Source of the DNA: a phage
Reading direction: 5' to 3' (one strand)
DNA: 64,000 bases
NCBI GenBank assembly: GCA_024682255.1
Contig: GCA_024682255.1_4716.1
The position numbers and the translations under genes were made by a program. Each line of letters begins with the position of its first letter. Positions within the stretch are counted from its first letter, which is position 1. Below, one piece after another: positions 2,821 through 62,425 of this stretch. Below the pieces are notes generated by a model, which was not told where the DNA came from, did not search any database, and was given only the letters and a program-made list of their open reading frames with translations.

Positions 2821-3321
2821 TTACTCTTCTGTGTTTTCATTGTCAGGATCGTAGTGGAATTCGAACAGCCCTGAACCGTCGTGCCCGTTGATTGTTAGTA
2901 TAACGGGCATATCGAATCCTCGGACGCGCGAATGAAAACACTGTGCTAATTTGAGTTTGGCGTATGCCACTATTTCATTGACGGCAATGCACGACTCACC
3001 TGTTATACTCAGTATAACGTCGATACTAACAATGTTGTCGTGCAACGCAAAACGCCAGCGATCGATACGATTATTATCTTTAGCAGGTGTCTCGTTTACG
3101 AGATAGACTTTATCGTCAACCGACAAAGCGGGACTCCAGCAACGTTCGTTTATTAAATTCGCCTGGAGTTTTAGTATCGTCTGATCAATAATATCCCAAC
3201 ACGCAACCAGCGTGGCGTCAGACACTGAATTGAGAAGGGTGAGTACTTTATCCTTTATTTTAAGTGCTTCCGCAGGACGCCCGCAAATACCATGCATTTC
3301 AACTTTCTTATTCATATTCAC
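2821..3321 (-). CDS. Hypothetical protein (166 aa), acidic C-terminus
   Basis: ORF in minus-strand array. Confidence 0.55.
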   Translation of the reverse strand: MNMNKKVEMHGICGRPAEALKIKDKVLTLLNSVSDATLVACWDIIDQTILKLQANLINERCWSPALSVDDKVYLVNETPAKDNNRIDRWRFALHDNIVSIDVILSITGESCIAVNEIVAYAKLKLAQCFHSRVRGFDMPVILTINGHDGSGLFEFHYDPDNENTEE

Positions 3322-3360
3322 TTCTTTCTTAATCTAAATGTTAGTTGGGGGATGGGATGC

Positions 3361-3993
3361 TTACATGCTTTCTAGCATATTGACGATCATGGAACCCATA
3401 CCGAAACTCGGTCTCTCACCGATATACTCAGCAAGTTGACGGTGTACGTCTTTTGGATTTCCTTCTTCACCGTCAGCATCGATGTAGACCGAAAAAGAAA
3501 CCGAATCGGAATCCACGCTGATAACCAGACGACGTTCATTGCGTTCCTTGAGCGTGTCGACGATAGATGCTTTCAGTACCGGGATCGCATTCATCGCGTG
3601 CAAGATATCTCCATCAGGTCTCGCCAGATCGATCTTTTCTTTCAGGTCGATATTGATGTTGGTTACAATTGGGTTGAGGTCGACCTTGACATAATCGTTG
3701 GGATACATGCGAATAATCGCACGATCGATATCTGAACCGTAAAAGTCAACACGTGGCTTTAACACCTCTTTGTTTGGATCCATGTTTTCATCCATACCCG
3801 CCTGCAAGAAACGTTCTACGTTATCCAGTTCACGATAAACTGACGCTTCGATTTCTTTCAGATAGTTGGCTGCGGTTTCATGTTCTTTACGTAGCTCGTC
3901 TTTAAGGAGCTGTACGGTGGTTTCACTGGAACGAATGCTGTTCGCGAATTGGGTAATTGACATATCGAATTCCTTAAATTCTCTTGAGTTCAA
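3361..3993 (-). CDS. Hypothetical protein (210 aa)
   Basis: ORF in minus-strand array; strong terminator 4028-4045 upstream. Confidence 0.6.
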   Translation of the reverse strand: MNSREFKEFDMSITQFANSIRSSETTVQLLKDELRKEHETAANYLKEIEASVYRELDNVERFLQAGMDENMDPNKEVLKPRVDFYGSDIDRAIIRMYPNDYVKVDLNPIVTNINIDLKEKIDLARPDGDILHAMNAIPVLKASIVDTLKERNERRLVISVDSDSVSFSVYIDADGEEGNPKDVHRQLAEYIGERPSFGMGSMIVNMLESM

Positions 3994-4027
3994 TTGATGA
4001 TGAAAAGCTGTAAAAAAGGTGGGGCGA

Positions 4028-4045
4028 ACCCCACCAAAACGTCAG
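4028..4045 (-). terminator. Rho-independent terminator (minus strand) after gene 4061-4486
   Basis: GGTGGGG-CGAA-CCCCACC stem-loop followed on minus strand by T6. Confidence 0.7.
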
Positions 4046-4060
4046 ACACACGCAGGAAAA

Positions 4061-4486
4061 TTAATTCAGTGACGCATATAAGGCATAACGACTGTAGATT
4101 TCAACCGCCGGTCCGTTATGCGTTAACAGACCATCCCGGTTGTAATACTGGAAAAATGAATAACGTTTGTCGAAGTGATAAACAAAAGCAATGTCTTTGC
4201 CGTCAAAACCTGTGATGCGTGGTCTGTTTTTATCTAGCAATGCTTTAACTTTTAACAGTGTTGCCGCACGTGCTTTAACGTTAGGGATCAAGCCATCACA
4301 ATCGATATAAACAGTGTAACCTGTTTCAGATGTTGCGACGGTCGTATTGCGATTGACGCGGAAGATTTTTGTTTCGTATGTACTATCTTCAAGAATTGGG
4401 TTTTGTTTTTCGTATTTTCGTTTACGCAGAAATTCTACAACGGTGATATAGTTAGCGGTAATATGCCCGGTTATAGCTTGTAACAT
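4061..4486 (-). CDS. Hypothetical protein (141 aa)
   Basis: ORF with conserved leader ATCCAATATAAAAGGATGTCGAG before ATG. Confidence 0.6.
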   Translation of the reverse strand: MLQAITGHITANYITVVEFLRKRKYEKQNPILEDSTYETKIFRVNRNTTVATSETGYTVYIDCDGLIPNVKARAATLLKVKALLDKNRPRITGFDGKDIAFVYHFDKRYSFFQYYNRDGLLTHNGPAVEIYSRYALYASLN

Positions 4487-4658
4487 CTCGACATCCTTTT
4501 ATATTGGATTGATTGCAATTGTCTTAAATAGATGATAAGATATTTTGCTCTTATCACTAAGGTAACGCTTACGCGTCGCGTTCATGATGCATGGCATCAT
4601 GAAGGTAATGTAGTCGTGAAATAAACTGCGTTAACACGAAATAAAAAACAGCATAGAA

Positions 4659-4690
4659 CCCTCTCCCAACCCGTAAGGGAAGGGAGAGGG
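4659..4690 (-). terminator. Conserved 32-nt hairpin element, copy 1
   Basis: CCCTCTCCC-AACCCGTAAGGGAA-GGGAGAGGG; identical copy at 11827-11858, variant at 51905-51936. Confidence 0.6.
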
Positions 4691-4703
4691 AATATTAAAA
4701 TTG

Positions 4704-5159
4704 TCACTTTATATTGAACGCTTTTCGCAACGCATTAAGAACTAAATTAATTTCTTGCGCTTGTAACTTTAATCCCTGTGCTGAGCCATCAAACCCAAGC
4801 CAACGCCATACAAGGCATTTTACAGGTTTGTTGCTATCGTCGATACTATATGTGATCTCCAGTGTACTTTGATACGCGTAGTCACCATGTGTTTTCAGTG
4901 ACTGATTGAAATAAATATCAAATGCTTCTTCTATAGCCTGTTTACCGCGATCGTTACAAACAAACGCGATGTATCCGTCGGAATATCCAACTTCCTCTGG
5001 ATGTCCTTGGCAGGAGAAAATACTGATGGCGTCTTGCTGAGCAAGATTGAACACCGTGAAGAAATCACCAAATAAAGGATCGAGATTTAATGCGTTGTTA
5101 TCGATAAGGTTCCTTACCGCTTTACGGTATTCTCCCAGACTATTGTTCGCTGTAAACAT
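4704..5159 (-). CDS. Hypothetical protein (151 aa)
   Basis: ORF in minus-strand array followed by conserved hairpin. Confidence 0.6.
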   Translation of the reverse strand: MFTANNSLGEYRKAVRNLIDNNALNLDPLFGDFFTVFNLAQQDAISIFSCQGHPEEVGYSDGYIAFVCNDRGKQAIEEAFDIYFNQSLKTHGDYAYQSTLEITYSIDDSNKPVKCLVWRWLGFDGSAQGLKLQAQEINLVLNALRKAFNIK

Positions 5160-5169
5160 TCTTTTACCT

Positions 5170-5571
5170 TTAAATATCGTGGATAGCGGTGCCGTTTAGC
5201 CAACAATACAACTTAATGCGACACGGATAGCGATTCGTAGCCAAGAGCAGTTCATCGCGTAAACGCTGGTAGATTTCATCCTGGTGTTCGCGATCAATGG
5301 GGTAATCGGCCCAACATTCGATCATGACGTCACCATTCGTCAGAATCGTCGTACGCATCCTGTCCTGGATACGGCGGTCTTTCCCGGCATTAGGGAAATA
5401 CATTCCTTCGGTACGAATAAGGTCGCCGCAGGGCATGACTAACCATTCGTTCGTTTTGCCGGTATTCTTATAATCCATTACAGCTTGCATTGCGGTGTCA
5501 ACGCTAAAAGAAACATAATTCCAAACGGATGTCCAACGATAGATTGCGGGTTGTTCGAGTGTTTCGTTCAT
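5170..5571 (-). CDS. Hypothetical protein (133 aa)
   Basis: ORF in minus-strand array. Confidence 0.55.
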   Translation of the reverse strand: MNETLEQPAIYRWTSVWNYVSFSVDTAMQAVMDYKNTGKTNEWLVMPCGDLIRTEGMYFPNAGKDRRIQDRMRTTILTNGDVMIECWADYPIDREHQDEIYQRLRDELLLATNRYPCRIKLYCWLNGTAIHDI

Positions 5572-5785
5572 GGAGTGCTTGTCCTATTTTTATTTTCTGC
5601 ACAGGATAAATTCAACGGCATAAAGCCCTTCCCTGCCCTTATATGGGGCGGGAAGAGTTTATGACCGCAATGAGAATCTCTCACGACAAGCTCACGACGA
5701 TTATCGCATCACCCCGCGAGTGAGGGAGATCAGGATCACCTCCTACGTCGTAACGACAGTAATCCCGTTAACGCCACCTTAGGCA

Positions 5786-6412
5786 TTATGCAAAGCGACG
5801 CATGTAACCTGCCAGATAGTTACGCGTATCGAAGTAAGCAATTTCAGGAATTGCGATGTTAAGGTCGATAGCGCGGATTTCAACTTGGCGACGGCTTTCA
5901 TCATAGATCGCATCCATCAGACGCAGTACTGTCAGGAAAGCCATGCGGGTATGGTAGTCCAGCGGCATGTTGTCGATACCGCGATACAGATAACGGTTTG
6001 CGTTAAATGCCCCTTCGCTGTTATCTTTCCAGATCTTCAGAATATCAGCAAAGGCGGTGCGGAAAACCTCAGGATTATCCACATCCAGTAACGCACGGAA
6101 GGCAGACATTAAAGACCGCTGATGGCGGATCAACGACTGCGGCGTTTGCGGCATGGTTGGACCCATTTCTTCCGCATATTTCTGGAACGGGGCAACCAGG
6201 GTTGCGGCACGAGAAGCCACGATAGAAACAGCAGGCGATTCTTTCACCGCTGGTTTCGCAGGCTTTTCTTCAACAACGGTTTCCTTCTTCTCAACAGCGA
6301 CCGTTTCCGGCTGTGCTACAACATCACTAACCGGAGCATCTGCAACGGTGGTTTCTACCGCAGTAATCTCCTCGTCCATTTTTGCAGAACGTTGGTCTTT
6401 ATTCTTGCTCAT
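5786..6412 (-). CDS. Hypothetical protein (208 aa) with low-complexity acidic/Pro/Val-rich N-terminal half
   Basis: ORF; hairpin 5625-5656 about 130 nt downstream. Confidence 0.6.
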   Translation of the reverse strand: MSKNKDQRSAKMDEEITAVETTVADAPVSDVVAQPETVAVEKKETVVEEKPAKPAVKESPAVSIVASRAATLVAPFQKYAEEMGPTMPQTPQSLIRHQRSLMSAFRALLDVDNPEVFRTAFADILKIWKDNSEGAFNANRYLYRGIDNMPLDYHTRMAFLTVLRLMDAIYDESRRQVEIRAIDLNIAIPEIAYFDTRNYLAGYMRRFA

Positions 6413-9195: not shown

Positions 9196-10877
9196 GCGAA
9201 CAAGAAAAAGAAGTCGTGACGAATCAGGAAGCCGTTGAGCGTTCAGAGTCGTCTGTTGAAACAACGATTCCGGCAAGTTCCGAGCCTGTTGGTTCCGTAC
9301 AGCAGGAAAGTAAAGACGAAGTCAACACTACTAAAGAAGATGTAGTGGCTCCAGAAGCAACCCGTGAAGAAGAACCGTCACATCCACCGCTAATCGATTT
9401 CTCGAAGGCGACGATACGTTTCCAATGCGAAGACATTCGTCCTAAGAGTCCGAAGAAAACAAAACGTCAGCCGTTGGTGTTACCGTTATATTCTCCGCGT
9501 GTGCAGACAACGTATTACCGGGAATACATCAACGAAGCAATGGATACCGTGCAAGCCATTGTCGCTCAACGCGGTAAACCGACAGACGAACAGTTTGATA
9601 AATTCAGTAAAGCGGTGGTGCAATCGGTTGCTGATGGACAATATCATCCGCGTGGTCCAGCTCACGATCGCGCGTTGGAACGTAAAGGCAGTCAGTGGAC
9701 TAACGTACCCGTAGACTCATCGGGTGTTGGTCGCGTTATTCCTGGCATTCCGCAACCGAACCATATTCCTGATGATGTCGAAGCGCCGCTGACAGGAACC
9801 GATGCGATCTATTTTGCTATCCGTAATACGAAATCAGGCGCACCTGCGGTAATGCCGTTATGGCATAGCGGTATTAAGCTGCAGTTCAATCCGCCGTCAA
9901 ATGAACGTGTTGCAATTATGCACGAACGTATTGCACGCGATAAAATCCTGGGTGGTCGTGATAGCACCGGTTTCCTGTTTTCGGCAACCTCGATTATCAC
10001 CATGAAGCACGCAATCGAATTAGCGTTAGAATGCTGTTACATGGCCAACGTACCGAACCTGGATATCCAGCGTTTGAAAGACATTATTCCGGTTACCGAT
10101 GTTCCGGCGTTGTTGTTGAACGTGCTGGTAACCATGTATCCGTACGGGTATCCTTACGTACAGACCTGCTATCAGAATCCAGAAACCTGCGACTATCGTG
10201 TCGAAGATACCGTAAGCTTTGCGAAGCTCTATCAAGTTGACAACAGCGCAATTACCAAACGTATGCGACAGATCATGACCGAAGGTCCGGTCATGACAGA
10301 TGAACTTTTGCGTGAGTATGCGAACGAGCTGGGTGAAACGAACTCCCGTACGCTGGATCTGTCCGACAACGGTTCTGTTATCATTGAACTCGAAGTACCG
10401 AAGATCTCACGACAAATCGCCATGGGTGAACGTTGGTTAAGCGATACGCTGGAAGATCTGCGTGATATTCTATCGCGTCCGTCGATGACCGAAGAAGAGC
10501 GTGATCGTGTTATTCGTGAACGTCAGTTCTATAGCTGGATGCGTCAGTATGATGCGTGGATCAAATCGATGCATGTGTCGGTAAACGGTACCATGCGTCG
10601 TGTAAGCGATGCAGATACGGCAACGGTATTAGCACAGCTGTCTCGTGACAGCGACCTTCGTGAACGCTATATCGATGGGCTGATGCAATTCATCGGTGAT
10701 TCGACGATTGCGCTCGCAGCGATGCCTGCCTGGAAATGTCCGAAATGTAATGCCGATATTGCTGACAATCTGCGTGACCAGAAATACTACGATCTGATTG
10801 CTTTGGATGTACCCCAGCTTTTTTTTACCCTAAACTCCGTCCAATCTCTTCAGGAGGGGATGGACGCGGTATTCTAA
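9192..10877 (+). CDS. Hypothetical protein (561 aa); zero-frame product of a candidate frameshift gene
   Basis: Long ORF translationally coupled to upstream gene; U7 slippery run 10820-10826 near 3' end. Confidence 0.75.
   Translation: MSEQEKEVVTNQEAVERSESSVETTIPASSEPVGSVQQESKDEVNTTKEDVVAPEATREEEPSHPPLIDFSKATIRFQCEDIRPKSPKKTKRQPLVLPLYSPRVQTTYYREYINEAMDTVQAIVAQRGKPTDEQFDKFSKAVVQSVADGQYHPRGPAHDRALERKGSQWTNVPVDSSGVGRVIPGIPQPNHIPDDVEAPLTGTDAIYFAIRNTKSGAPAVMPLWHSGIKLQFNPPSNERVAIMHERIARDKILGGRDSTGFLFSATSIITMKHAIELALECCYMANVPNLDIQRLKDIIPVTDVPALLLNVLVTMYPYGYPYVQTCYQNPETCDYRVEDTVSFAKLYQVDNSAITKRMRQIMTEGPVMTDELLREYANELGETNSRTLDLSDNGSVIIELEVPKISRQIAMGERWLSDTLEDLRDILSRPSMTEEERDRVIRERQFYSWMRQYDAWIKSMHVSVNGTMRRVSDADTATVLAQLSRDSDLRERYIDGLMQFIGDSTIALAAMPAWKCPKCNADIADNLRDQKYYDLIALDVPQLFFTLNSVQSLQEGMDAVF
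10820..10826 (+). other. Candidate -1 programmed ribosomal frameshift site (T TTT TTT)
   Basis: Heptamer in X_XXY_YYZ register of the 561-aa frame; -1 frame open 10778-11299. Confidence 0.35.
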
Positions 10878-11810: not shown

Positions 11811-11826
11811 TGTAAAGGTAACATAA

Positions 11827-11858
11827 CCCTCTCCCAACCCGTAAGGGAAGGGAGAGGG
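11827..11858. terminator. Conserved 32-nt hairpin element, copy 2, between convergent genes
   Basis: Identical to 4659-4690; flanked by CATAA and CTTATGCTGTTATGCTGTT. Confidence 0.65.
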
Positions 11859-11875
11859 CTTATGCTGTTATGCTG

Positions 11876-12250
11876 TTAATCTTCGTTCCAGATGGCATCT
11901 TCCGGTGGAACAATAGGATCTTTCTTCGGCATTGATGGCACTTCATGACGATGCTTACGGAACTGCCTATCAATAACCTCACGAAGCCGGTACGCATCAA
12001 CCCATGTTGATTTATTGAACAGCTCCAACGTCACAGTTAGCCGTGTTCTCGACATTGAATAGCTTTTCTTTGCAATCAAATTGGGATAATTCAGTTGAGC
12101 GAACCACGCACGTATTTGTGCTTCGGTAAAAGCGATGCTGTAATAACTAAGTTTACCGTCATTAAAATCGTGCGCGTGGGTGTAGCGTCCAGCGTAACGC
12201 CAGACAAGATGCACATTCAGATCGATCCATGGTGGGGTGGTATCAGCCAT
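11876..12250 (-). CDS. Hypothetical protein (124 aa)
   Basis: ORF at end of minus operon, followed by bidirectional hairpin. Confidence 0.55.
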   Translation of the reverse strand: MADTTPPWIDLNVHLVWRYAGRYTHAHDFNDGKLSYYSIAFTEAQIRAWFAQLNYPNLIAKKSYSMSRTRLTVTLELFNKSTWVDAYRLREVIDRQFRKHRHEVPSMPKKDPIVPPEDAIWNED

Positions 12251-17269: not shown

Positions 17270-20200
17270 TACATAAACTCCTCGATGATGCAAATCCCAT
17301 TAGCACCGCGCCCACCAGGCTTAGCGGTTCCTGAGTAAGAGTTATCGTAAGCAGCACCACCACCCGAACCAGGCGCGAGGCCGTTATGGGCGGTGCCGAC
17401 ACCAGCACGGCCGCCACCGCCCCAATATGACGCACCCCCACATCCACCGGCGGCAAGAGTACCGGCTTGTCCATCGCTACCGTCTCCGCCCGGAATGCGT
17501 ATATCCCCGGTAGTAGGTACGCCCCCATAGCCACCGCCAGTGTTTGTGACAGTTGTTTTTCCTGCGCCTTGCCCGCCGGGAGCAGTTAGCAGGGATGCAA
17601 ATTTACTATCTCCACCCCCGTTCCCATTCGTCGCCCCAGAGCCACCGGAACCACCAGAACCAATTATAACAGAATAACTAGCAGCTGCTACCGTTATAAC
17701 CGAAATTACTGTTCCGCCAGCTCCTCCTCCAGCGCCAAAAAACGTTTCGCTGTTGGAATAAGCCTGACAACCGCCACCGCCACCGCCACCACCGGTTATC
17801 GTTACTCTAATCCGTTTTGTTCCTTGTGTTGGGGTGTACGTCCCTGACGATGTGAAAACACGCATATTCAGTAAACGCCCGACATATCCACTAGAATCGG
17901 CTAAACCAAGATCTTTAGCTGCTAACGTGATATTAGCCGTACCGTCGAAAGGTTTACCGTTAATCGTGCGCGCAGTTTGCAGCTTCGTCGCCGTTGCTGC
18001 GTTCCCTGATGTATTCTGGTTCCCCGCGGCGTTAACACCTGGTAGATTGATGTTCGCACTACCGTCGAACGCGACACCACCGATCGTCCTTGCTGTTTGC
18101 AGTTTTGTCGCCGTGGCGGCATTACCGGTCGTGTCTTGGTTACCGGTGGTGTTTACCCCAGGCAGGTTGATATTTGCCGTTCCGTTAAATGAGACACCAC
18201 CAATCGTCCTTGCCGTTTGCAACCTCGTTGCGGATGCCGCATTCCCCGTGGTGTTTTGGTTACCTGTTGCATTCACACCTGGGATACTATCCTTAGATGT
18301 GTAGATCTGTGCCCATTCCGACCAGTTCGCATCGGTTGAATCACGACGTGAACGTAAATAAGCTGGAGCGTGTGCACCTGAGGTACCTGACCACCCAATG
18401 AGGATTTCGCCTTCGCCGACCGATGAAGCACCTTTAAGATGAACAATGTTGCCGTAGGCTGTAGGGTATCCGTTATTGTACGCTTCATACATCTGGATAC
18501 CCGTGTTGCTGCCCTGGGTCGCATTAGCTAAAGCGGTGACCCGTCCTTTGGAAGCGAGCACGTTAATGCTAAAGCTAATATCGGTTGTACCGTCAAAGGC
18601 GACCCCGTTAATCTTCCGTGCTGTTTGGAGTTTCGTGGCAGTAGCCGCATTACCAGAGGTACTCTGATTACCTGCTTTGTTCACACCCGGTAAATCAATG
18701 TTGGCTGTTCCATCAAAGGACACGCCCCCTATGGTTCTCGCTGTCTGGAGTTTTGTTGCTGAACCAGCGTTTCCGGAAGTGCTTTGATTACCTGCCGCGT
18801 TGACACCTGGTAGGTTAATGCTAGCAGAGCCATCAAAAGAAACTCCGCCGATCGTGATCGGTGTTTTCAATTTCGTGGCTGTCGCGGCGTTACCCGTCGT
18901 ATTCTGATTGCCAGCCGCATTAACGCCTGGTAATGCGATATCGGTCGTACCATCGAACGCAACACCACCGATTTTACGGGCGGTCTGTAGCTTGGTCGCT
19001 GTAGCCGCGTTGCCGCTGGTATTTTGCGTGCCCGCTTCATTTACGCCTGGTAAATCAATGTTCGCAGTACCATCAAAAGAAACACCCCCGATGGTTCTCG
19101 CGGTCTGCAACTTCGTTGCACTTCCTGCGTTTCCGCTGGTGCTTTGATTTCCCGCTGCATTAACACCTGGTAGACTGATGCTGGCTGAACCATCGAAACT
19201 CACACCACCGATCGTAACAGCGGTTTTCAATTTCGTGGCGGTTGCTGCGTTACCGGTTGTATTTTGGTTGCCTGTCGCATTCACGCCAGGTAATGCAATA
19301 TCCGCTGTTCCGTCAAAGGCAACGCCACCGATTTTACGTGCAGTTTGTAGCTTGGTTGCACTAGCAGCGTTACCGCTGGTATTCTGGGTGCCTGCTTTGT
19401 TAACACCGGGGAGATCGATGTTAGCAGAACCATCGAAGCTGACGCCACCTATCGTTCTTGCGGTAGCGAGTTTAGCTGCTGTGGCTGCATTATTACCCAC
19501 TTTCAGCCAATCATCCCATGGACCATCCTGGCCGTTCCATGATGCCGTTAAACTACGTACGTAAATATTGCCGGTACGTACAGTGTAACGTTGCGTTCCA
19601 CCGAATTGCCCGGTTGGGAGCACTTCAATGTAACCTGCGGCGTTTGCTTCAGGGAAATTGTGGGCGATGTCCGCGTTCGTTGTTACTGGTTTAGACCAAA
19701 TACCAACAGACGCTTCGACTGGGCCGAAGGTATTCAGATTTGCGTCTATCGCCATAGCGCCATTAAATTTCAGGTATGTCTCTGGCGATAATCCGATCGT
19801 TTTAGCAAACGCAGCTTTATCTACGATATCACTACCGTTATTCCCTGCTTGCAACGCCGTCTTAGCTGCCTTTATGGTTTCGGTCAATCCAAGATATTGT
19901 AAGATCGCATCAACGCTTCCTTTGTTTAGCAGATTCAGACCTGTTGACGTTACGTTAGTTAGTCCGATTTGGTTCCGTCCAGTAAAATAAGGGAGTTTAT
20001 TCGCTTCTGTTGTTAGGTTAGACCACGCAGTCAACAACGCGTTCAAAGGCTGTTTACCCGCCAACGCATTGGTTACTGTCGTTGCGAAATTAGGATCGTT
20101 CCCTAAAGCTTGAGCCAGCTCATTAAGCGTATTTAGCGCTTCTGGAGACGAGTCGATCAGCGATGCGATAGCGCGCATCACAAATTCCGTGTTGGCAATC

Positions 20201-31772: not shown

Positions 31773-32090
31773 TTAGTTTGCACGTAAGAAATGACCCAGA
31801 ACCGTTACGATTGGAAACAGCCCTGTAACAGTATCATCGCCCGAAAACATCATCATTGTTCCGTTAACGGTGATGAAACGGATGTCGGTTGCGGACCCAT
31901 CGATAGCGACAAAACGCATCGAGTTCGGTGGAAGGTCCTCAACAACTTCCACGAGATACTCGCGATTATCAAAGGCTTCTTTAACACGACGCATGAAACG
32001 AATCAATGTTCCTTCCGCGTCGGCTTCCAAATGACCTAAGATATCGCGATTATTACGAATAGCGAATACAGCCATTTTAAACATACTCAT
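31773..32090 (-). CDS. Hypothetical protein (105 aa)
   Basis: ORF with conserved leader ATCCAATATAAAAGGATGTCAAG before ATG; terminator 31748-31769 downstream. Confidence 0.55.
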   Translation of the reverse strand: MSMFKMAVFAIRNNRDILGHLEADAEGTLIRFMRRVKEAFDNREYLVEVVEDLPPNSMRFVAIDGSATDIRFITVNGTMMMFSGDDTVTGLFPIVTVLGHFLRAN

Positions 32091-32156
32091 CTTGACATCC
32101 TTTTATATTGGATTGGTTGCTAATAATTCAAGGTGAAGCTGATTACTGCATTGCTT

Positions 32157-51582: not shown

Positions 51583-51915
51583 TTACTGAAACAAGACATT
51601 AAATTCGACGAGATACCCATCGGATCTATCGCCGCGATATCTGTTGCAGAAAACACCGAATTTCATCAAGAACTCGCATAACTCTTCGGCTTTGTATAAC
51701 GGAATACGATTTTCGTCGAGCAGAGGACACTTATGGCTAACCCGCTCCGACGAATCAACGCAACACAAATAAAGAAGGAATCGAACAATAGCTCGGTTCT
51801 TAGTGAAGCTCTCGAATTCACCCGCGGTTCTGAACTCATCGAGGAGCTTTGTCGTTTTCTTCAATCGTTCACGATCAAGCATGTTAACCTCAATACGAAC
51901 ATAACCCTCCTCCAA
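51583..51915 (-). CDS. Paralog family protein C (110 aa; C-terminal domain only)
   Basis: Aligns with C-terminal halves of paralogs A and B (NR.IV.FL..L, C.L.D..RI, Y..EF.VL). Confidence 0.6.
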   Translation of the reverse strand: MEEGYVRIEVNMLDRERLKKTTKLLDEFRTAGEFESFTKNRAIVRFLLYLCCVDSSERVSHKCPLLDENRIPLYKAEELCEFLMKFGVFCNRYRGDRSDGYLVEFNVLFQ

Positions 51916-51936
51916 CCCATCAGGGAAGGAGGAGGG
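51905..51936 (-). terminator. Conserved 32-nt hairpin element, copy 3 (variant)
   Basis: CCCTCCTCC-AACCCATCAGGGAA-GGAGGAGGG with the same CATAA and ATATGCTGTTATTCTGTT flanks as copies 1-2. Confidence 0.6.
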
Positions 51937-51945
51937 AATATGCTG

Positions 51946-52260
51946 TTATTCTGTTTTCGGTGTCGAACCGTTCTTCTTGAAGTCGGATTCGTATTTCACG
52001 TTAGAATCGAGAACCTCACGAACGGTTTTATCTGTACAACCACGGGCGATGTATGCATTAAGATCGTCGCGTAATTTACGCATCGTTGTTTTATCCGCAT
52101 CAGAAATATCTGACTTGGTAAGACGGAATGCAATTGCATCACGAACTTTATTCAGCGTTGCTGGATTATTACGCTGTTCTGCAAATACCGCTTTGATGAA
52201 TGTACCGCTATCTTTCGAAGCGATGGCGGCATCAAGAATTTCAATATGCTTTTCAGACAT
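51946..52260 (-). CDS. Hypothetical protein (104 aa)
   Basis: ORF in minus operon. Confidence 0.55.
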   Translation of the reverse strand: MSEKHIEILDAAIASKDSGTFIKAVFAEQRNNPATLNKVRDAIAFRLTKSDISDADKTTMRKLRDDLNAYIARGCTDKTVREVLDSNVKYESDFKKNGSTPKTE

Positions 52261-58380: not shown

Positions 58381-58938
58381 TCACTCCATCCATACTTCTT
58401 CGTCGTAATGATTCTCTATCGCATTACGCCAAAAACGCACGGTGTCCAAACTAATCGGTGCGTAAAAGTGTTGGTCAACGCCTACGTTAAGTCCGTTGGC
58501 CTTCGCTAACATACAGCGATGAATATGCCCGAATAGATTAAAGTAGCCTGGATTTCTTTCGCTGGGCTTATGACAGAGCCAGTAGGATTCGTCATTGCTA
58601 ATCGGCAATACCAACGGATGTTCATAAACCGCAGCAAACCCCATACCGAGCAATTTATCACGCCACGCTTCAAAGCTTAATCCTGTCGCTTTGTATGCGT
58701 CTTCGTCCCAATTCCCCAATACCAATTGAACCTGGATATCAGAACGAATGGCTTCCACGAACTCGAACTTACCCCAATCACCTAAATGCCACAACACGCT
58801 GTTCTTTGGAAGGGTGTTGATGGCTTTCAGCATATGCTGATTCATATCGGCGACGCTTGCGAACGGACGGCGTGAATACGTCCATGTACGCTCGCTATCA
58901 AAATGGGTATCCGATATAAAGAAGATGGGTGGGGTCAT
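58381..58938 (-). CDS. Calcineurin-like metallophosphoesterase (Ser/Thr phosphatase-like)
   Basis: Motifs ISDTHFD, HLGDWG, GNWDED, GHIH consistent with PPP-family metal-binding signature. Confidence 0.7.
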   Translation of the reverse strand: MTPPIFFISDTHFDSERTWTYSRRPFASVADMNQHMLKAINTLPKNSVLWHLGDWGKFEFVEAIRSDIQVQLVLGNWDEDAYKATGLSFEAWRDKLLGMGFAAVYEHPLVLPISNDESYWLCHKPSERNPGYFNLFGHIHRCMLAKANGLNVGVDQHFYAPISLDTVRFWRNAIENHYDEEVWME

Positions 58939-59417
58939 TGATTTAATTGCTCCAGAAATGCACGACCCGATTTACTTGCTTTTAAATGCTGTTCTGCGGA
59001 AGTAAGCAGAAGATCGGTTGGCGTGTATGCAGCGCTACCTTTCCACGCTGTTTTCAGTTTACCCTTTTCGATACTGAACTGAATCAGTTGTTGGGTACCG
59101 AAGTTAAGCGTGTTCGTCGCAGCGCTAAATACACCACCCATCATGCTGTAACCAAAGACTTTCACATTTTCCGTGTAGAAGTCGTTATCGATCAATTTGT
59201 TCTGGAGCTCTAGTTGGTCGGACGGCAGCAATCCCCCATCAAAGATGCTTAAAATACCAGCCAGGCGATACATACTTACCTTTCCTGAAACACCCACCAC
59301 GTAATTGCCGTACAGGGTTTCTTCCAGTTTAGCAACAACGGTGCGATCGTCGGAGGTTTTCATCGAAACCTCAATACCATCACCAACTTCTGTTAACGTT
59401 AAATCAACGATACTCAT
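58935..59417 (-). CDS. Hypothetical protein (160 aa)
   Basis: ORF; 4-nt overlap with phosphatase gene. Confidence 0.6.
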   Translation of the reverse strand: MSIVDLTLTEVGDGIEVSMKTSDDRTVVAKLEETLYGNYVVGVSGKVSMYRLAGILSIFDGGLLPSDQLELQNKLIDNDFYTENVKVFGYSMMGGVFSAATNTLNFGTQQLIQFSIEKGKLKTAWKGSAAYTPTDLLLTSAEQHLKASKSGRAFLEQLNQ

Positions 59418-59440: not shown

Positions 59441-60127
59441 TCAACACATGATTTCACCATGTTTCTTTTCAACATACGTATAAACATCATCCAAATAAGC
59501 AATGAGTTTATCACGATCCACACAGAGCGATTTAATCACCGCAATCTCTTTCATATAAAGCTGCTGACCTAACGCCGGATAGGTAATCCAAGCGTAGCCG
59601 TCAGGCGCAAATTTAGAGATAAGATAATCGGCGGTTTCCTGTAATGCGAACTCTTTGCTCATCTGGCCGTAACGGTGTTCGATTGCACGGATACCAAAAC
59701 GTTCGCTATCGAGACGACCCATATCCGCCAGACGAAGCACCTGAGAAGCAACAGAACTACGTGGACCAGAGTACGAGGCACGATGTTCAGCAATAAGTAC
59801 GTGTATCTCCTCGATGTCTTCCGGTGTGAAAATATGCTGCTCGTTACGAAGCAGAATAACCGATGCACGAATACCCCCGATAAGGTGGTGGTATGTTCTG
59901 TTTTCGTGGCAAGCGATATCATGCATAAAAGCAGCGGTTAATAAACGACGACGTTCCGTGGGTCTGATGATGCCAACCACATCGGCCAGTTCATTTGCCA
60001 GTTCAACAACGGCAAGCACATGTTCTTCTTGATGTGCAAGATCGTTCTTCCGAATATTTTCAATTACTTCAGCGCGAGTTTCCTGAGATAAGAAATTTAA
60101 ACAATCCAACGAATATAAAGATTTCAT
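59441..60127 (-). CDS. HD-domain phosphohydrolase (possible 5'-deoxynucleotidase)
   Basis: His...HD...D signature: EEHVLAV and AAFMHDIAC. Confidence 0.7.
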   Translation of the reverse strand: MKSLYSLDCLNFLSQETRAEVIENIRKNDLAHQEEHVLAVVELANELADVVGIIRPTERRRLLTAAFMHDIACHENRTYHHLIGGIRASVILLRNEQHIFTPEDIEEIHVLIAEHRASYSGPRSSVASQVLRLADMGRLDSERFGIRAIEHRYGQMSKEFALQETADYLISKFAPDGYAWITYPALGQQLYMKEIAVIKSLCVDRDKLIAYLDDVYTYVEKKHGEIMC

Positions 60128-60176
60128 CGCACGTACCTCTTTGAATCGGTAGATAGATTAATAGATATTGATTACT

Positions 60177-60200
60177 CACGTAAGTAATATAGCCGTGAAA
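60177..60200. promoter_or_regulatory. Conserved 24-nt intergenic motif CACGTAAGTAATATAGCCGTGAAA (copy 2)
   Basis: 23/24 identity with 32157-32180; in divergent intergenic region. Confidence 0.4.
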
Positions 60201-60279
60201 GGATTTGTGTTGGTCCGCCTCGATGCCCATCGTATTTTATGGATTGTCGAATGACGTCATTTTAAGGGACATCCCCGGC

Positions 60280-60315
60280 CTCCTCCCCAGGAAAGGTGTG
60301 GGGAGGAGTTTTTAT
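60280..60315 (+). terminator. Strong plus-strand rho-independent terminator-like hairpin immediately upstream of helicase start
   Basis: CTCCTCCCCA-GGAAAGGTG-TGGGGAGGAG followed by TTTTTAT. Confidence 0.6.
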
Positions 60316-60343
60316 CATACATTCTATTAAATCGAGCGCGATT

Positions 60344-62425
60344 ATGTTGGATAGAATCAATCGTTTAATGAACCGAATAACGGTTAAAAATCAGAGTAAC
60401 AATACCGTGCATATCGGGGGTATCGATGCCTGGCGTCTTTCAGATGACATTCAGCGAATATGGGGTACCTCCCGATTTATGAAACATATGTTTCGTAATT
60501 TCTCTTCTAGTGGACTCAGTCTCCACAACTTTTACCTTCCCGATTTCGTTTATATTCTCGAAACGATCATCGAGGCAAAGAATACTCGCAGTAATAAACG
60601 CATGCTGAAACACCTTATTGAGGTACTGCTGCAGGAAACCTGGTTGCAAAATACCACAATCGAGCAACCTGCAATCCTCGATAAAGCACGCATGAACAAA
60701 ATGCTAACGCTCTCCCTGTTCGATTATCAAGATGAGTTTATCGACATCTATAACCGTAACGTACCTAAATATCGACTGAAAGGATACGTGTGCGCGATGG
60801 GTGCGGGTGCGGGTAAAACAATCACCGCATTGGCTTTAAGCGCCGCAATGAACGTCGACGTATTTGTGGTCTGCTGTCCTAAGAACACCATGCGTTCAGC
60901 ATGGCAATCCGATGTAAACAAAGCCATCGTTGACCCCGCAACAGAAACCGCGTTCTGGTCAGATACAATGCCCCCATCACAGCTGCAGAAAAGCGATAAG
61001 TATTATTTTCTGCATTACGAGTCGATGGGTTTATTAAACGAAGTAATGATCAAGCATAAACGCACAGCGAAGCGCGTGTTGATCGTGGTTGATGAAAGCC
61101 ATAACTTCAACGACAAGAACAGCCAACGTTCCCAACGGCTGGTCGATCTCGTACAGACGATGCGTCAGACCATGAATGCGGATGTGCATGTCTTGTTTAT
61201 GTCGGGTACACCTGTTAAACAAATGGGTTCTGAGATGATCCCCTGTTTAGGTTGTATCGACCCGATGTTCCAAGGACAAGTGGTCGATAGCTTCAAAGCA
61301 ATTTACGGTTTAACCAGCAGTCGTGCTAACGATATCCTCAGACATCGTCTTGGGTTCATGATGCATGTCGTACCTAAAGAGGCTTACCGTAAAACCCGGC
61401 CGGAAGTTCAGGATGTTTACGTGAAGCTCCCTAACGGTAGCGATTATACCATCTCAAGTATCCGCGACGACATGGCGATATTTGTACGCGATCGGGCGAA
61501 GTATTACAAGGATAACTGGGGGCATTACCGAAAGATTTTTGATGATGCCTTGGACTACTATCGTAAGACTATTCGTACCGATGGTGAACGTAAAGAGCTA
61601 TCTCGATACGAATCGATTGTTGCTCGTTTCCAGAAAGGTTACGATCCCGTCAGAGACAAAGAAGATGCGATGTTCTGCAACACGTTTGAAAAACGAGCGA
61701 TCATGCCGGTTCTTCCTTCTGATTTAAGGATTGCTTTCAAAGACGCCAAGAGCGTCATCAAGTACGTTGGGTTGAAAATTCAGGGTGAAGCGTTGGCACG
61801 TGTTCTAGGTGCAGCCCGCATTCGGTGTCATGTCGACATGGTGGAGTACATCGACTTCGAAGGGTACATCAACAACGCTGAAGCCAAGGTGTTGATCTTC
61901 ACGTCGTATGTTCAGGTGGTTGAGCGCGTCGACAACCTGCTTCGTGATGCGGGTTTCTTACCGGAACCCATTTACGGGAAGACCAACAAGAACATCAACC
62001 AGATACTCGCTCGTCTACGGGACGATCCTGACAGCGGTCCCGCTATTGCAACATTTGATAGCTTAGCTGAAGGGGTTCCGATGCTGATGTGTAATGTGGG
62101 TCTTTTCCTGAACAATCCATGGCGTTCATCCGATGAAATCCAAGCCATCAGCCGTCTCGATCGTGTAGGACAAACGCAGCCTGTTCGGATTTATCGTTTC
62201 ATGTTAGATACGGGAAGCGAGGGTAACGTTTCTACACGTAGCCACGAAATCATGGAGTTAAGTCGACAGCTTGTTGAAGAGATCACGGGTGTCAAATATG
62301 TAGTGAACAAGCAAGACGATGTTAACTTGCAAGAAACGTTGGCGATGGAAGGATACGATCAATACGTTACCGTAAACACCACGGAATACGATATTAAACC
62401 GCGACCTGCGTTCTTGGAATGGTGA
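60344..62425 (+). CDS. SNF2-like superfamily 2 helicase/ATPase
   Basis: Walker A GAGAGKT, DExH box VVDESHN, motif III SGTP, motif VI QAISRLDRVGQ; start taken at ATG 60344 (ORF track start lies inside the hairpin). Confidence 0.8.
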   Translation: MLDRINRLMNRITVKNQSNNTVHIGGIDAWRLSDDIQRIWGTSRFMKHMFRNFSSSGLSLHNFYLPDFVYILETIIEAKNTRSNKRMLKHLIEVLLQETWLQNTTIEQPAILDKARMNKMLTLSLFDYQDEFIDIYNRNVPKYRLKGYVCAMGAGAGKTITALALSAAMNVDVFVVCCPKNTMRSAWQSDVNKAIVDPATETAFWSDTMPPSQLQKSDKYYFLHYESMGLLNEVMIKHKRTAKRVLIVVDESHNFNDKNSQRSQRLVDLVQTMRQTMNADVHVLFMSGTPVKQMGSEMIPCLGCIDPMFQGQVVDSFKAIYGLTSSRANDILRHRLGFMMHVVPKEAYRKTRPEVQDVYVKLPNGSDYTISSIRDDMAIFVRDRAKYYKDNWGHYRKIFDDALDYYRKTIRTDGERKELSRYESIVARFQKGYDPVRDKEDAMFCNTFEKRAIMPVLPSDLRIAFKDAKSVIKYVGLKIQGEALARVLGAARIRCHVDMVEYIDFEGYINNAEAKVLIFTSYVQVVERVDNLLRDAGFLPEPIYGKTNKNINQILARLRDDPDSGPAIATFDSLAEGVPMLMCNVGLFLNNPWRSSDEIQAISRLDRVGQTQPVRIYRFMLDTGSEGNVSTRSHEIMELSRQLVEEITGVKYVVNKQDDVNLQETLAMEGYDQYVTVNTTEYDIKPRPAFLEW

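What the first reader, a model, noticed from the sequence alone, without database searches (positions are those of the whole stretch)
60128..60343. Divergent intergenic region with perfect 12-bp palindrome and a strong terminator directly in front of the helicase start
Between the minus-strand HD gene and the plus-strand helicase lie the conserved 24-nt box, the perfect palindrome AATGACGTCATT (60250-60261) and a 10-bp-stem hairpin with T5 (60280-60315) ending 29 nt before the helicase ATG. This leaves no room for a promoter after the hairpin. It implies either a short plus-strand transcript (sRNA-like, about 80-110 nt) ending at this terminator, or an attenuator/antitermination control of helicase expression.
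Basis: seen in the sequence. Interest (0 to 1): 0.45.

Follow-up and report, generated by a model that had tools for sequence, protein, structure and literature searches.

The report
Conserved leader RNA before phage helicase
In a Goslar-like giant E. coli phage, the gap in front of a virion helicase gene holds a strongly conserved promoter-like motif, small hairpin and terminator that probably make a ~73-base leader RNA limiting helicase expression, a kind of element already seen in phage phiKZ.

Summary
The window is a close relative of Escherichia phage Goslar, a nucleus-forming jumbo phage that encodes its own RNA polymerases. All the sequence features reported are real.

- **The 24-nt box.** It is a minus-strand element with core TATATTAC. 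All 13 intergenic copies in Goslar point at minus-strand genes, including chimallin. It is most likely the early promoter of the HD operon, not the promoter of a plus-strand RNA.
- **A conserved unit.** From 60229 to 60313 only 4 of 86 alignment columns vary across 10 strains. Other non-coding DNA there varies at 34% and flanking coding DNA at 20%.
- **What the unit holds.** An invariant TTTTATGG (TATG is the phiKZ late-promoter/start motif), a 5' hairpin, the terminator hairpin (-20.6 kcal/mol, with one compensatory A-U to G-C change) and a T-run.
- **Sister lineages.** Two lineages with 58-62% helicase identity keep the same layout with different stems.
- **The palindrome.** Its right half is not conserved in those lineages and it forms one arm of the 5' hairpin. 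The exact 12-mer does recur in Goslar's chimallin 5' UTR.

Best reading: a ~73-nt plus-strand leader RNA ending at a premature terminator, with the helicase made by read-through. This is inferred, not shown. PhiKZ has northern-confirmed RNAs of this kind. It is a new member of a known kind, of moderate interest.

The parts
59441..60127 (-). HD-domain phosphohydrolase gene, first gene of a long minus-strand block
   Evidence: ORF. Annotated in Goslar as a putative HD superfamily hydrolase. Pfam HD hit on the sister-lineage homologues.
60128..60175 (-). 5' leader of the HD gene, hypervariable, with an 8-nt indel against Goslar
   Evidence: 17 of 48 columns vary among 10 strains.
60176..60200 (-). 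The '24-nt box'. Read on the minus strand it is TTTCACGGCTATATTACTTACGTGA, a candidate early (virion RNA polymerase) promoter for the HD operon
   Evidence: All 3 window copies and all 13 intergenic TAYATTAC copies in Goslar are minus-oriented and upstream of minus-strand genes, including chimallin. Only 1 of 25 columns varies. It is conserved in sister lineages. The same TATATTAC core sits on the opposite strand in the intergenic region in front of phiKZ gp203.
60201..60228 (.). Variable spacer between the box and the plus-strand unit
   Evidence: 11 of 28 columns vary. Its length is roughly 16-40 nt across lineages, read off the alignment.
60229..60241 (+). Promoter-like ATCGTATTTTATG. TATG lies at 60238-60241 and the putative start is G60241
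   Evidence: Invariant in 10 Goslar-like strains. TTTTATGG is invariant in 3 lineages. TATG is the phiKZ non-virion polymerase promoter/start motif (PMC7598289 and PMC12809450). The assignment is by analogy only.
60241..60313 (+). Predicted ~73-nt leader or short RNA
   Evidence: It lies inside the conserved block 60229-60313, where 4 of 86 columns vary against 34% in other non-coding DNA (Fisher p = 2e-7) and 20% in flanking coding DNA (p = 1.6e-4). The same pattern appears in the sister lineage.
60242..60258 (+). 5' hairpin. Lower stem GAU/GUC, bulged U, upper stem GUC/GAC, loop GAAU
   Evidence: RNAalifold consensus. The upper stem and loop are essentially invariant, apart from one G-C to G.U change in L012. 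By my reading, the lower stem is GGG/CCC in sister lineages. In MAFFT's register there is one A-U to G-C compensatory pair. The support is modest: 37 of 500 shuffles reach it.
60250..60261 (.). Perfect palindrome AATGACGTCATT. It overlaps the loop and the 3' arm of the 5' hairpin
   Evidence: The exact 12-mer occurs only twice in Goslar, the second copy in the chimallin 5' UTR. The right half is not conserved in sister lineages.
60266..60275 (+). Small 3-bp GC hairpin GGGACATCCC
   Evidence: Present in the RNAalifold consensus. Sister lineages have a small hairpin at the same place. Weak.
60280..60308 (+). Terminator stem-loop: 10-bp perfect stem, 9-nt loop
   Evidence: -20.6 kcal/mol, z = -3.15. 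Strain L046 carries a compensatory A-U to G-C change at 60289/60299. Sister lineages keep a hairpin there with unrelated stem sequences that include G.U pairs valid only on the plus strand. Annotated as a terminator in Goslar.
60309..60313 (+). T5 tract, the U-tract of the terminator
   Evidence: A T-rich tract follows the hairpin in all lineages, while the other side of the hairpin is GC-rich.
60314..60343 (+). Variable linker with a weak ribosome-binding site (my reading of the sequence). No conserved promoter-like motif
   Evidence: 8 of 30 columns vary. The TATC after the T-run is not conserved: TTTTTATCATAC, TGTTTTCATAC, TTTTTACCAGAC and TTTTTACATAC all occur.
60344..62425 (+). SNF2/SWI-SNF-type helicase gene. 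It is the homologue of RAY gp131 and of phiKZ gp203, both of which are virion-associated or structural
   Evidence: (bioRxiv 10.1101/2023.02.24.529968).

Best explanation
The intergenic region holds two independent, back-to-back control elements.

**1. Minus strand.** The 24-nt box (core TATATTAC) is the early promoter, read by the injected virion RNA polymerase, that drives the HD operon leftwards.

**2. Plus strand.** A self-contained unit runs from 60229 to 60313.
- Its start is a promoter-like TTTTATGG, where the phage's non-virion polymerase would begin at the G of TATG (60241).
- The RNA opens with a 5' stem-loop at 60242-60258.
- It ends at a strong intrinsic-terminator hairpin and U-tract at 60280-60313.

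Most transcripts would stop there, giving a ~73-nt structured RNA. The fraction that reads through carries the weak ribosome-binding site and the helicase gene. The element would therefore throttle expression of a low-copy, virion-packaged helicase.

**Shown:** the sequence features, the orientation statistics of the box, the sharp conservation boundaries, the compensatory changes, and conservation of the layout with turnover of the stem sequences.

**Inferred:** that TATG is a start site in this phage, that the hairpin terminates the phage polymerase, that the helicase depends on read-through, and that the helicase is a late, virion-packaged protein (inferred from its RAY and phiKZ homologues).
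For: **The phage**
- The window is 96.8% identical to Goslar. [quoted passage not shown]

**The box**
- The full 16-nt box pattern gives 10 hits in Goslar with up to 3 mismatches, all on the minus strand.
- All 13 intergenic TAYATTAC copies are minus-oriented and upstream of minus-strand genes.

**Conservation of the unit**
- In 10 strains, 4 of 86 columns vary in the unit. The spacer before it varies at 11 of 28 columns and the linker after it at 8 of 30. Fisher p = 2e-7 against other non-coding DNA.
- Two of the four variable columns are a compensatory pair in the stem.
- In the sister lineage, 9 columns vary in the ~35-column spacer, against only a poly-G length change in the unit, about 109 columns.

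**Conservation across lineages**
- Three lineages (58-62% helicase identity) keep TTTTATGG-nn(n)-TGTCGAATGA, then a hairpin and a T-run, with unrelated stems.
- G.U pairs in the sister-lineage stems fit only the plus-strand RNA.
- The T-run is on the plus side only.

**No alternative promoter**
- No conserved motif lies between the hairpin and the ATG in Goslar-like strains.
- The only TATG that could give a translatable helicase mRNA within the intergenic region is the one at 60238.

**Precedent in phiKZ**
- The late promoter is TATG with the start at G.
- The terminator motif is CCYCCCC..GGGRRGG followed by TTAT.
- 42 termination sites lie in phage 5' UTRs. Short RNAs of 71 and 141 nt were confirmed by northern blot, and such RNAs are conserved among relatives.

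**Late expression of the helicase island**
- The helicase homologues are virion-associated or structural proteins.
- The next gene downstream is a DUF7941 protein. The Goslar virion paper lists DUF7941 among the proteins it modelled.
Against: - No transcript mapping exists for Goslar. None was found in the literature searches, and the paper read does not describe any.
- TATG is only 4 bp. It is enriched in intergenic DNA on both strands: 91 sense and 67 antisense, against about 43 expected.
- The predicted leader is 103 nt, whereas TATG-to-ATG distances cluster around 25-50 nt.
- Bases just after this TATG (GATT) do not match the common CYGT that follows TATG in Goslar.
- One sister lineage has a canonical TTTATGCCGT after its hairpin. 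PhiKZ gp203 has TTATG 41 nt before its ATG, downstream of a hairpin. In those phages the helicase need not depend on read-through, which favours an sRNA-gene or insulator reading there.
- Covariation in the 5' hairpin is modest: 37 of 500 shuffles reach it.
- More distant chimalliviruses (RAY, Eowyn, Proteus phage 10 and two metagenomic lineages) lack the element.
Confidence: 0.5

Rival explanations
1. Insulator plus DNA-level control. The hairpin and T-run stop stray plus-strand transcription, antisense to the early HD operon, from running into the late helicase island. The helicase has its own promoter that I cannot recognise, overlapping or just after the hairpin. The conserved block 60229-60275 is a protein-binding DNA site.
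For: - In one sister lineage and in phiKZ, a TATG motif lies between a hairpin and the helicase ATG.
- PhiKZ has antisense transcripts and antisense-oriented terminators.
- The 12-mer palindrome recurs at another early promoter region, as an operator would.
- Two of 20 divergent regions in Goslar carry an annotated plus-strand terminator in front of the plus-strand gene.
Against: - No conserved motif follows the hairpin in the 10 Goslar-like strains or in lineage L012.
- The nearest upstream plus-strand gene is 8 kb away.
- A simple insulator does not need the invariant 50 nt in front of it, nor a 5' hairpin with pair-preserving changes.
- The palindrome's dyad symmetry is lost in sister lineages.
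Confidence: 0.25
2. A stand-alone trans-acting small RNA gene. The ~73-nt RNA is the product that matters. It acts on other phage RNAs or proteins, for example through the self-complementary 12-mer shared with the chimallin 5' UTR. The helicase is expressed independently.
For: - The conservation is sharply delimited, running from 12 nt before the start to the end of the T-run.
- The loop sequence is invariant across lineages.
- The exact 12-mer occurs in the chimallin leader 30 nt before its AUG.
- PhiKZ 5' UTR-derived RNAs are abundant and have been proposed to be regulatory.
Against: - Duplex prediction does not rank chimallin among the best targets. Sister-lineage RNAs show no better pairing with their chimallin leaders than with shuffled sequence: 55-69% of shuffles do as well or better.
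- In sister lineages the chimallin leader carries a different palindrome (TTGTCGACAA), which shares only a 6-7-mer with the unit.
- No Rfam family matches.
Confidence: 0.12
3. Palindromic operator. AATGACGTCATT is the binding site of a dimeric phage regulator that co-controls this region and the chimallin promoter region.
For: - There are exactly two copies in 237 kb, both beside early-promoter boxes. A third, partial copy (TGACGTCATTTT) lies in another intergenic region.
- At the chimallin site, sister lineages have a different but still perfect palindrome. TGACGTCA against TGTCGACA is a symmetric swap.
Against: - At the helicase site only the left half is conserved in sister lineages.
- Its position relative to the early box differs between the two copies: upstream of the promoter here, downstream of it at chimallin.
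- Only 2 of 13 early-promoter regions carry it.
- 12-bp palindromes as such occur at chance frequency.
Confidence: 0.1
4. Leader-peptide (translation-coupled) attenuator. The ATG inside TATGG opens an 8-codon reading frame whose translation controls formation of the terminator.
For: A short reading frame exists: MDCRMTSF* here and MGLSNDPNI* in L010. In both it ends in the conserved TTTAA block.
Against: - The conserved nucleotides are read in different frames in different lineages, and in L012 the frame runs into the helicase.
- I see no ribosome-binding site in front of it.
- A start at the G of TATG would remove the AUG.
- In nucleus-forming phages transcription is physically separated from translation (abstract of PMC12908238, listed).
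Confidence: 0.02

Closest known systems
PhiKZ 5' UTR premature terminators and the short RNAs they produce (T102 before PHIKZ221, ~71 nt; T131 before PHIKZ302, 141 nt; Putzeys et al. 2024, PMC10914365)
   Same: - A phage of the same family (Chimalliviridae) with the same two phage RNA polymerases.
- A promoter followed within about 100 nt by an intrinsic terminator in front of a gene.
- Similar predicted size (~73 nt).
- Sequence conservation among relatives.
   Different: - Those RNAs are mapped and northern-confirmed. This one is only predicted.
- The genes downstream are different. The phiKZ homologue of this helicase is PHIKZ203, not 221 or 302.
- No sequence similarity was looked for.
PhiKZ-type intrinsic terminator motif 5'-BCCYCCCCHWWDGGGRRGGBYTTATKYYGT-3'
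   Same: The stem is CCTCCCC...GGGGAGG, followed by a T-run containing TTAT. By my count from the hairpin list, Goslar has about 11 hairpins followed by TTATGC or TATGC, and all lie downstream of a co-oriented gene.
   Different: - The loop is 9 nt, not 4.
- The tail is TTTTTATCATAC, lacking the conserved G and the YYGT.
- It is the only GC-rich hairpin of this class in Goslar with an antisense gene upstream and a co-oriented gene downstream.
Chimallivirus early (virion RNA polymerase) promoters: AT-rich ~10-nt motif centred near -10 (Ceyssens 2014, as summarised in PMC7598289)
   Same: This concerns the 24-nt box. It has an AT-rich conserved core, TATATTAC. It is found upstream of operon starts, always in the gene's orientation, including upstream of chimallin. 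The same core lies in the corresponding phiKZ intergenic region.
   Different: No start site has been mapped in Goslar. The Goslar box has extra conserved flanks (TTTCACG ... GTGA), read from the listing.
PhiKZ late promoter TATG, read by the non-virion RNA polymerase
   Same: An invariant TATG preceded by a T-rich stretch.
   Different: The leader would be 103 nt rather than the 31-40 nt most common in phiKZ. Function is untested. The motif alone is far too short to be diagnostic.
Classical bacterial transcription attenuators and riboswitch leaders
   Same: A terminator hairpin in a 5' leader, with an upstream structured segment.
   Different: - No alternative anti-terminator pairing was identified.
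- No Rfam match.
- Leader-peptide coupling is excluded by the frame shifts between lineages.

Membership tests
Intrinsic (factor-independent) terminator | GC-rich stem-loop of high stability | tested here: met
   10-bp perfect stem with 7 G-C pairs, -20.6 kcal/mol, z = -3.15.
Intrinsic (factor-independent) terminator | U-tract immediately 3' of the stem, on one strand only | tested here: met
   TTTTT at 60309-60313. The minus-strand side is GCCGGGG. The T-rich tail is kept in all lineages.
Intrinsic (factor-independent) terminator | RNA 3' ends map at the U-tract | not testable with these tools
   No transcript data are available.
PhiKZ-type terminator motif (BCCYCCCCHWWDGGGRRGGBYTTATKYYGT) | CCYCCCC / GGGRRGG stem | tested here: met
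   CCTCCCC ... GGGGAGG.
PhiKZ-type terminator motif (BCCYCCCCHWWDGGGRRGGBYTTATKYYGT) | 4-nt loop and tail YTTATKYYGT | tested here: not met
   The loop is 9 nt. The tail TTTTTATCATAC has TTAT but C in place of K and no YYGT.
5' UTR premature terminator / 5' UTR-derived short RNA (as in phiKZ) | Terminator lies between a same-strand start site and the start codon, less than 250 nt from the start site | tested here: inconclusive
   The terminator is 30 nt before the ATG. The upstream start is inferred only from the invariant TATG at 60238-60241.
5' UTR premature terminator / 5' UTR-derived short RNA (as in phiKZ) | Sequence conserved among relatives | tested here: met
   4 of 86 columns vary in 10 strains, against 34% in other non-coding DNA. 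The pattern is the same in the sister lineage.
5' UTR premature terminator / 5' UTR-derived short RNA (as in phiKZ) | Two transcript populations, short and read-through, sharing one 5' end | not testable with these tools
   Needs northern blotting or long-read cappable sequencing.
Chimallivirus early promoter (the 24-nt box) | Conserved AT-rich ~10-nt motif repeated upstream of presumed early operons, in the orientation of the genes | tested here: met
   13 intergenic copies, all minus-oriented and upstream of minus-strand genes, including chimallin. 3 copies in the window against 0.53 expected.
Chimallivirus early promoter (the 24-nt box) | Motif centred near -10 of a mapped early start site | not testable with these tools
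   No start-site map exists for Goslar.
PhiKZ-type late promoter (TATG at the start site) | TATG present and conserved | tested here: met
   TTTTATGG is invariant in 10 strains and in two sister lineages.
PhiKZ-type late promoter (TATG at the start site) | Transcription starts at the G | not testable with these tools
   Would need in vitro transcription with Goslar non-virion polymerase, or 5'-end mapping.
Known cis-regulatory or small RNA family (Rfam 15) | Match to a covariance model | tested here: not met
   No hit at gathering score in the window other than a group I intron elsewhere. In 60100-60400 the best E-value is 2.2, to unrelated eukaryotic or archaeal families.
Leader-peptide attenuator | Conserved short reading frame in the leader | tested here: not met
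   The peptides differ (MDCRMTSF against MGLSNDPNI) because a 1-nt indel shifts the frame over conserved nucleotides.
Palindromic operator | Dyad symmetry conserved in relatives | tested here: not met
   Sister lineages read AATGACCCCAAC and AATGATCCC at this site. The dyad is kept only within the Goslar-like strains.
Replication origin | Extremum of cumulative GC skew at the site | tested here: not met
   The global minimum is at about 215 kb in Goslar. There is no inflection at 142.8 kb beyond the local strand switch.

The most novel reading that the evidence does not exclude
The ~73-nt RNA is a trans-acting regulator, or a shared protein- or RNA-recognition module. It would couple the late helicase locus to the chimallin (phage-nucleus shell) mRNA through the self-complementary 12-mer AAUGACGUCAUU. 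That 12-mer occurs only in these two leaders in the whole genome. Such a link could help switch off or re-route the early chimallin message late in infection.
Probability: 0.06. Interest if true: 0.75.

Novelty: new member of a known kind. Interest (0 to 1): 0.45.

Why it matters
Gene control in nucleus-forming jumbo phages is poorly understood. Non-virion polymerase promoters are only 4 bp long. Transcription is separated from translation. No transcript map for the E. coli model phage Goslar turned up in the literature searched here.

This locus offers a compact, sharply delimited and testable example of 5' leader termination in front of a conserved helicase whose homologues are packaged in the virion. 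It also gives a candidate early-promoter consensus for Goslar (13 intergenic copies) and a candidate late start site.

If confirmed, it would extend the 5' UTR-derived short RNAs of phiKZ to a distant genus and show that they are under purifying selection. It would also give phage engineers a natural expression-limiting cassette that works with the phage's own polymerases.

Tried and rejected
- **Sigma-70 promoter scan.** No site in the intergenic region. PhiKZ-like phages are in any case reported not to depend on host polymerase.
- **tRNA/tmRNA scan.** Nothing in the window.
- **Rfam.** Nothing at gathering score or by E-value for this region.
- **IMG/VR search with the helicase.** Only Goslar-identical intergenic regions.
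- **Phage database by protein.** The next relatives are below 40% identity, and their intergenic regions (RAY, Eowyn, Proteus phage 10) lack the element. The same holds for two metagenomic lineages at 37-38% identity.
- **Metagenome pattern scan.** 46 hits, most of them chance. Seven were real Goslar-like strains, recognised by the neighbouring early box.
- **Short reading frame in the leader.** Rejected because the frame differs between lineages.
- **Pairing of the short RNA with the chimallin leader.** Duplex prediction gave no support in Goslar or in sister lineages.
- **Replication origin.** No GC-skew extremum at the site.
- **Window against Goslar alone.** 1 difference in 168 nt looked conserved, but the start of the helicase gene is equally quiet. 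That pair alone was not convincing, and the 10-strain alignment was needed.
- **PhiKZ start- and termination-site tables.** The supplement of PMC10914365 is not held, so the phiKZ gp203 leader could be inspected by sequence only.
- **The Goslar virion paper.** It does not mention the helicase in its main text.
Full report
**What the window is.**
- The 2 kb around the finding is 96.8% identical to Escherichia phage vB_EcoM_Goslar. Goslar is a 237-kb nucleus-forming jumbo phage of the Chimalliviridae.
- These phages encode two multisubunit RNA polymerases. One is packed in the virion and reads early genes. The other is made after infection and reads middle and late genes.
- Sigma-70 reasoning about promoters therefore does not apply here.
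- In Goslar almost all genes are on the minus strand. The helicase and the gene after it form one of 20 small plus-strand islands.

**Checking the observation.**
  - the palindrome AATGACGTCATT at 60250-60261;
  - a perfect 10-bp stem (60280-60289 with 60299-60308) and a 9-nt loop;
  - TTTTT at 60309-60313;
  - the helicase ATG at 60344, which is 30 nt after the T-run, not 29.
- The hairpin folds at -20.6 kcal/mol with z = -3.15. The Goslar record annotates it as a plus-strand terminator.
- Twelve-base palindromes as such are at chance level in the window: 18 seen, 16.2 expected.
- This exact 12-mer, however, occurs exactly twice in the Goslar genome. The second copy is in the leader of the chimallin gene.

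**The 24-nt box belongs to the other strand.**
- The box has three copies in the window. The other two lie between pairs of co-oriented minus-strand genes, upstream of the second gene of each pair.
- In Goslar the 16-nt pattern has 10 matches with up to 3 mismatches, all on the minus strand.
- The core TAYATTAC has 13 intergenic copies, all minus-oriented and all in front of minus-strand genes. One of them is chimallin, the phage-nucleus shell protein.
- Jumbo-phage early promoters are described as a conserved AT-rich motif of about 10 nt centred near -10. They can be found by sequence analysis in front of early operons (PMC7598289).
- The same TATATTAC core sits, on the opposite strand, in the intergenic region in front of the phiKZ homologue of this helicase.
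- The box is therefore most likely the early promoter of the HD operon, firing away from the helicase. It cannot be the promoter of a plus-strand RNA.

**A sharply bounded conserved unit on the plus strand.**
- I found relatives in two ways. A protein search with the helicase found two sister lineages at 58% and 62% identity that keep the HD-helicase arrangement. A DNA pattern scan of metagenomes found seven more Goslar-like strains among many chance hits.
- Variable columns in an alignment of 10 Goslar-like strains:

| Segment | Window coordinates | Variable columns | Percent |
|---|---|---|---|
| HD coding sequence | 59815-60127 | 76 of 313 | 24% |
| HD leader | 60128-60175 | 17 of 48 | 35% |
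| Early box | 60176-60200 | 1 of 25 | 4% |
| Spacer | 60201-60228 | 11 of 28 | 39% |
| Conserved unit | 60229-60313 | 4 of 86 | 4.7% |
| Linker after the T-run | 60314-60343 | 8 of 30 | 27% |
| Start of the helicase gene | 60344-60650 | 49 of 307 | 16% |

- The unit is less variable than the other non-coding DNA (Fisher p = 2e-7) and than the flanking coding DNA (p = 1.6e-4).
- The four variable columns are as follows:
  - a 1-nt insertion in an A-run;
  - a T-to-G change in the T-run;
  - columns 60289 and 60299, which change together from A-U to G-C at the innermost stem pair.
- Nine sequences of the 58% sister lineage repeat the pattern. Nine columns vary in the ~35-column spacer. In the unit (about 109 columns) only a poly-G length changes.
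- The conserved block begins 12 nt before a TATG and ends with the T-run. That is the extent expected of a small transcription unit.

**What is inside the unit.**
- Across all three lineages the best-conserved stretch is TTTTATGG-nn(n)-TGTCGAATGA.
- In phiKZ the late promoter is the four bases TATG, and transcription starts at the G.
- If that holds here, the RNA starts at G60241 and ends at the T-run, about 73 nt long.
- Its first 18 nt form a small hairpin (60242-60258). The upper stem GUC/GAC and its GAAU loop are essentially invariant, with one G-C to G.U change in L012.
- By my reading the lower stem is GAU/GUC in Goslar-like strains and GGG/CCC in the sister lineages. In MAFFT's register that gives one compensatory pair.
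- The statistical support is modest. 37 of 500 shuffles reach the observed score, and there are only three independent lineages.
- The terminator hairpin is kept in place in all three lineages, but its sequence has turned over completely:
  - CTCCTCCCCA / TGGGGAGGAG in this window;
  - CCTTCGGAC / GTCCGAAGG in L010;
  - CCCCCT / AGGGGG in L012.
- The sister-lineage stems contain G.U pairs, which would be mismatches on the minus strand. The T-rich tail is always on the plus side.
- These points argue for a plus-strand RNA structure, not a DNA site or a minus-strand element.

**The palindrome.**
- In the sister lineages the site reads AATGACCCCAAC or AATGATCCC, so the dyad symmetry is not conserved.
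- In the Goslar-like strains the right half (GTC) is the 3' arm of the lower stem of the 5' hairpin. That explains part of its conservation.
- The exact 12-mer also lies in the chimallin leader, 30 nt before the AUG. It has the same orientation relative to transcription, and the similarity extends a few bases further.
- At that chimallin site the sister lineages carry a different perfect palindrome, TTGTCGACAA.
- I tested whether the predicted RNA could pair with the chimallin leader. Duplex prediction gave no support in Goslar or in the sister lineages.
- The recurrence remains unexplained. It could reflect a shared protein-binding site on DNA or on RNA.

**How the helicase is probably expressed.**
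- Between the T-run and the ATG nothing is conserved among the Goslar-like strains. The TATC after the T-run is replaced freely, and by my reading the ribosome-binding site is weak.
- Within the intergenic region, the only TATG that could give a translatable helicase mRNA is the one at 60238.
- This favours read-through of the terminator, that is, attenuation.
- The helicase's homologues are RAY gp131, a virion-associated SWI/SNF helicase, and phiKZ gp203, a structural protein.
- The next gene downstream is a DUF7941 protein. The Goslar virion paper lists DUF7941 among the proteins it modelled.
- A late island whose first product is needed in low copy number fits an expression-limiting leader.
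- There are counter-points:
  - The 58% lineage has a canonical TTTATGCCGT after its hairpin, 32 nt before its ATG.
  - PhiKZ has TTATG 41 nt before gp203, downstream of a hairpin.
  - In those phages the short unit may therefore be a separate RNA gene or an insulator.

**Comparison with what is known.**
- PhiKZ terminators share the stem type CCYCCCC..GGGRRGG followed by TTAT.
- By my count from the hairpin list, Goslar has about 11 hairpins followed by TTATGC or TATGC. All of them lie behind a co-oriented gene.
- The hairpin studied here has the stem type but not the loop or the tail. It is the only one of its class with an antisense gene upstream.
- In phiKZ and five other Pseudomonas phages, 42 termination sites lie in 5' UTRs.
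- Two phiKZ short RNAs (71 and 141 nt) were confirmed by northern blot.
- 17 phiKZ candidates were listed, and conservation among relatives was noted.
- The present element fits that description in layout, size and conservation. Whether it belongs to that class cannot be tested without transcript ends.
- No Rfam family matches. A leader-peptide mechanism is excluded by the frame shift between lineages. There is no GC-skew sign of an origin.

**Verdict.**
- A short plus-strand RNA or attenuator is the best reading (confidence about 0.5). It starts at a TATG, not at the 24-nt box, and the box is the divergent early promoter.
- The element is a new, well-conserved member of a kind already described in phiKZ. 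It is of moderate interest (0.45) and is easy to test.

Noticed in passing
window 1-280: The 3' part of a group I intron (Rfam RF00028, 59.8 bits), cut off by the window edge. By coordinate offset it falls in an 819-nt unannotated gap in Goslar (82470-83288), after a NUMOD1/HNH endonuclease gene next to a DNA-polymerase fragment. The Goslar record annotates two other group I introns but none here.
   Followed up: no
window 4652-4709, 11820-11877, 51898-51955; Goslar genome-wide: A family of GC hairpins (CCCTCTCCC...GGGAGAGGG) followed by TATGCTGTT, the same motif as phiKZ terminators. The bases conserved after the hairpin contain TATG, the late promoter/start motif. These may therefore be terminator-promoter couples rather than plain terminators. 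TTTATGC occurs in 12 upstream regions in Goslar against 1.4 expected.
   Followed up: partly
window 4484-4516 and 32088-32120: Two minus-strand genes behind early-promoter boxes share a 33-nt stretch at 94% identity, covering the start codon and leader (repeat family D6). This suggests duplicated gene starts or a shared leader element.
   Followed up: no
window 17930-19477: A tandem repeat of 120-nt period (7 copies, 61-74% identical). By coordinate offset it lies in the large tail-fibre repeat protein gene (Goslar gp90).
   Followed up: no
window 60148-60171: The leader of the HD gene, between the early box and the ribosome-binding site, is the most variable stretch of the region. It has an 8-nt indel and several substitutions against Goslar. 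This contrasts sharply with the invariant unit 60 nt away.
   Followed up: partly
Goslar MK327938 172929-172940 (L005); sister loci L068 and L071: The chimallin 5' UTR carries a perfect palindrome about 30 nt before the AUG in every lineage, but the sequence differs: AATGACGTCATT in Goslar, TTGTCGACAA in the sister lineages. TGACGTCA against TGTCGACA is a symmetric swap. That preserves self-complementarity in a way a small hairpin could not use.
   Followed up: partly
Goslar MK327938 9956-10069 (L002): A second divergent intergenic region has a similar plan in front of a late gene (gp13, baseplate). It has TATG at 9958-9961, two hairpins (9981-10001 and 10008-10026, the latter annotated as a terminator), a U-rich tail, and then the start codon 43 nt later. 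The first hairpin sequence (TTCTGAAC..GTTCAGAA) recurs at 60954-60976.
   Followed up: no
L013 (Logan SRR27947201), helicase gene 3001-6135: In one sister-lineage contig the helicase is 1044 aa and carries a LAGLIDADG (PF14528) insertion, probably an intein. Several more distant homologues show the same domain.
   Followed up: no
L012 1697-1795: In the 62% lineage the ATG inside TATGG is in frame with the helicase and no stop codon intervenes, which would give a 35-codon extension. This is probably accidental, but it is worth knowing when annotating that gene.
   Followed up: partly
Goslar gp158 (window about 58935-59417, minus strand): The Goslar virion paper lists a protein it calls gp158 among proteins present at more than 200 copies per virion. 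If its numbering follows the GenBank locus tags, this gene sits directly behind the HD gene in the operon headed by the early-promoter box. That operon would then not be purely early, or it has internal late starts.
   Followed up: no
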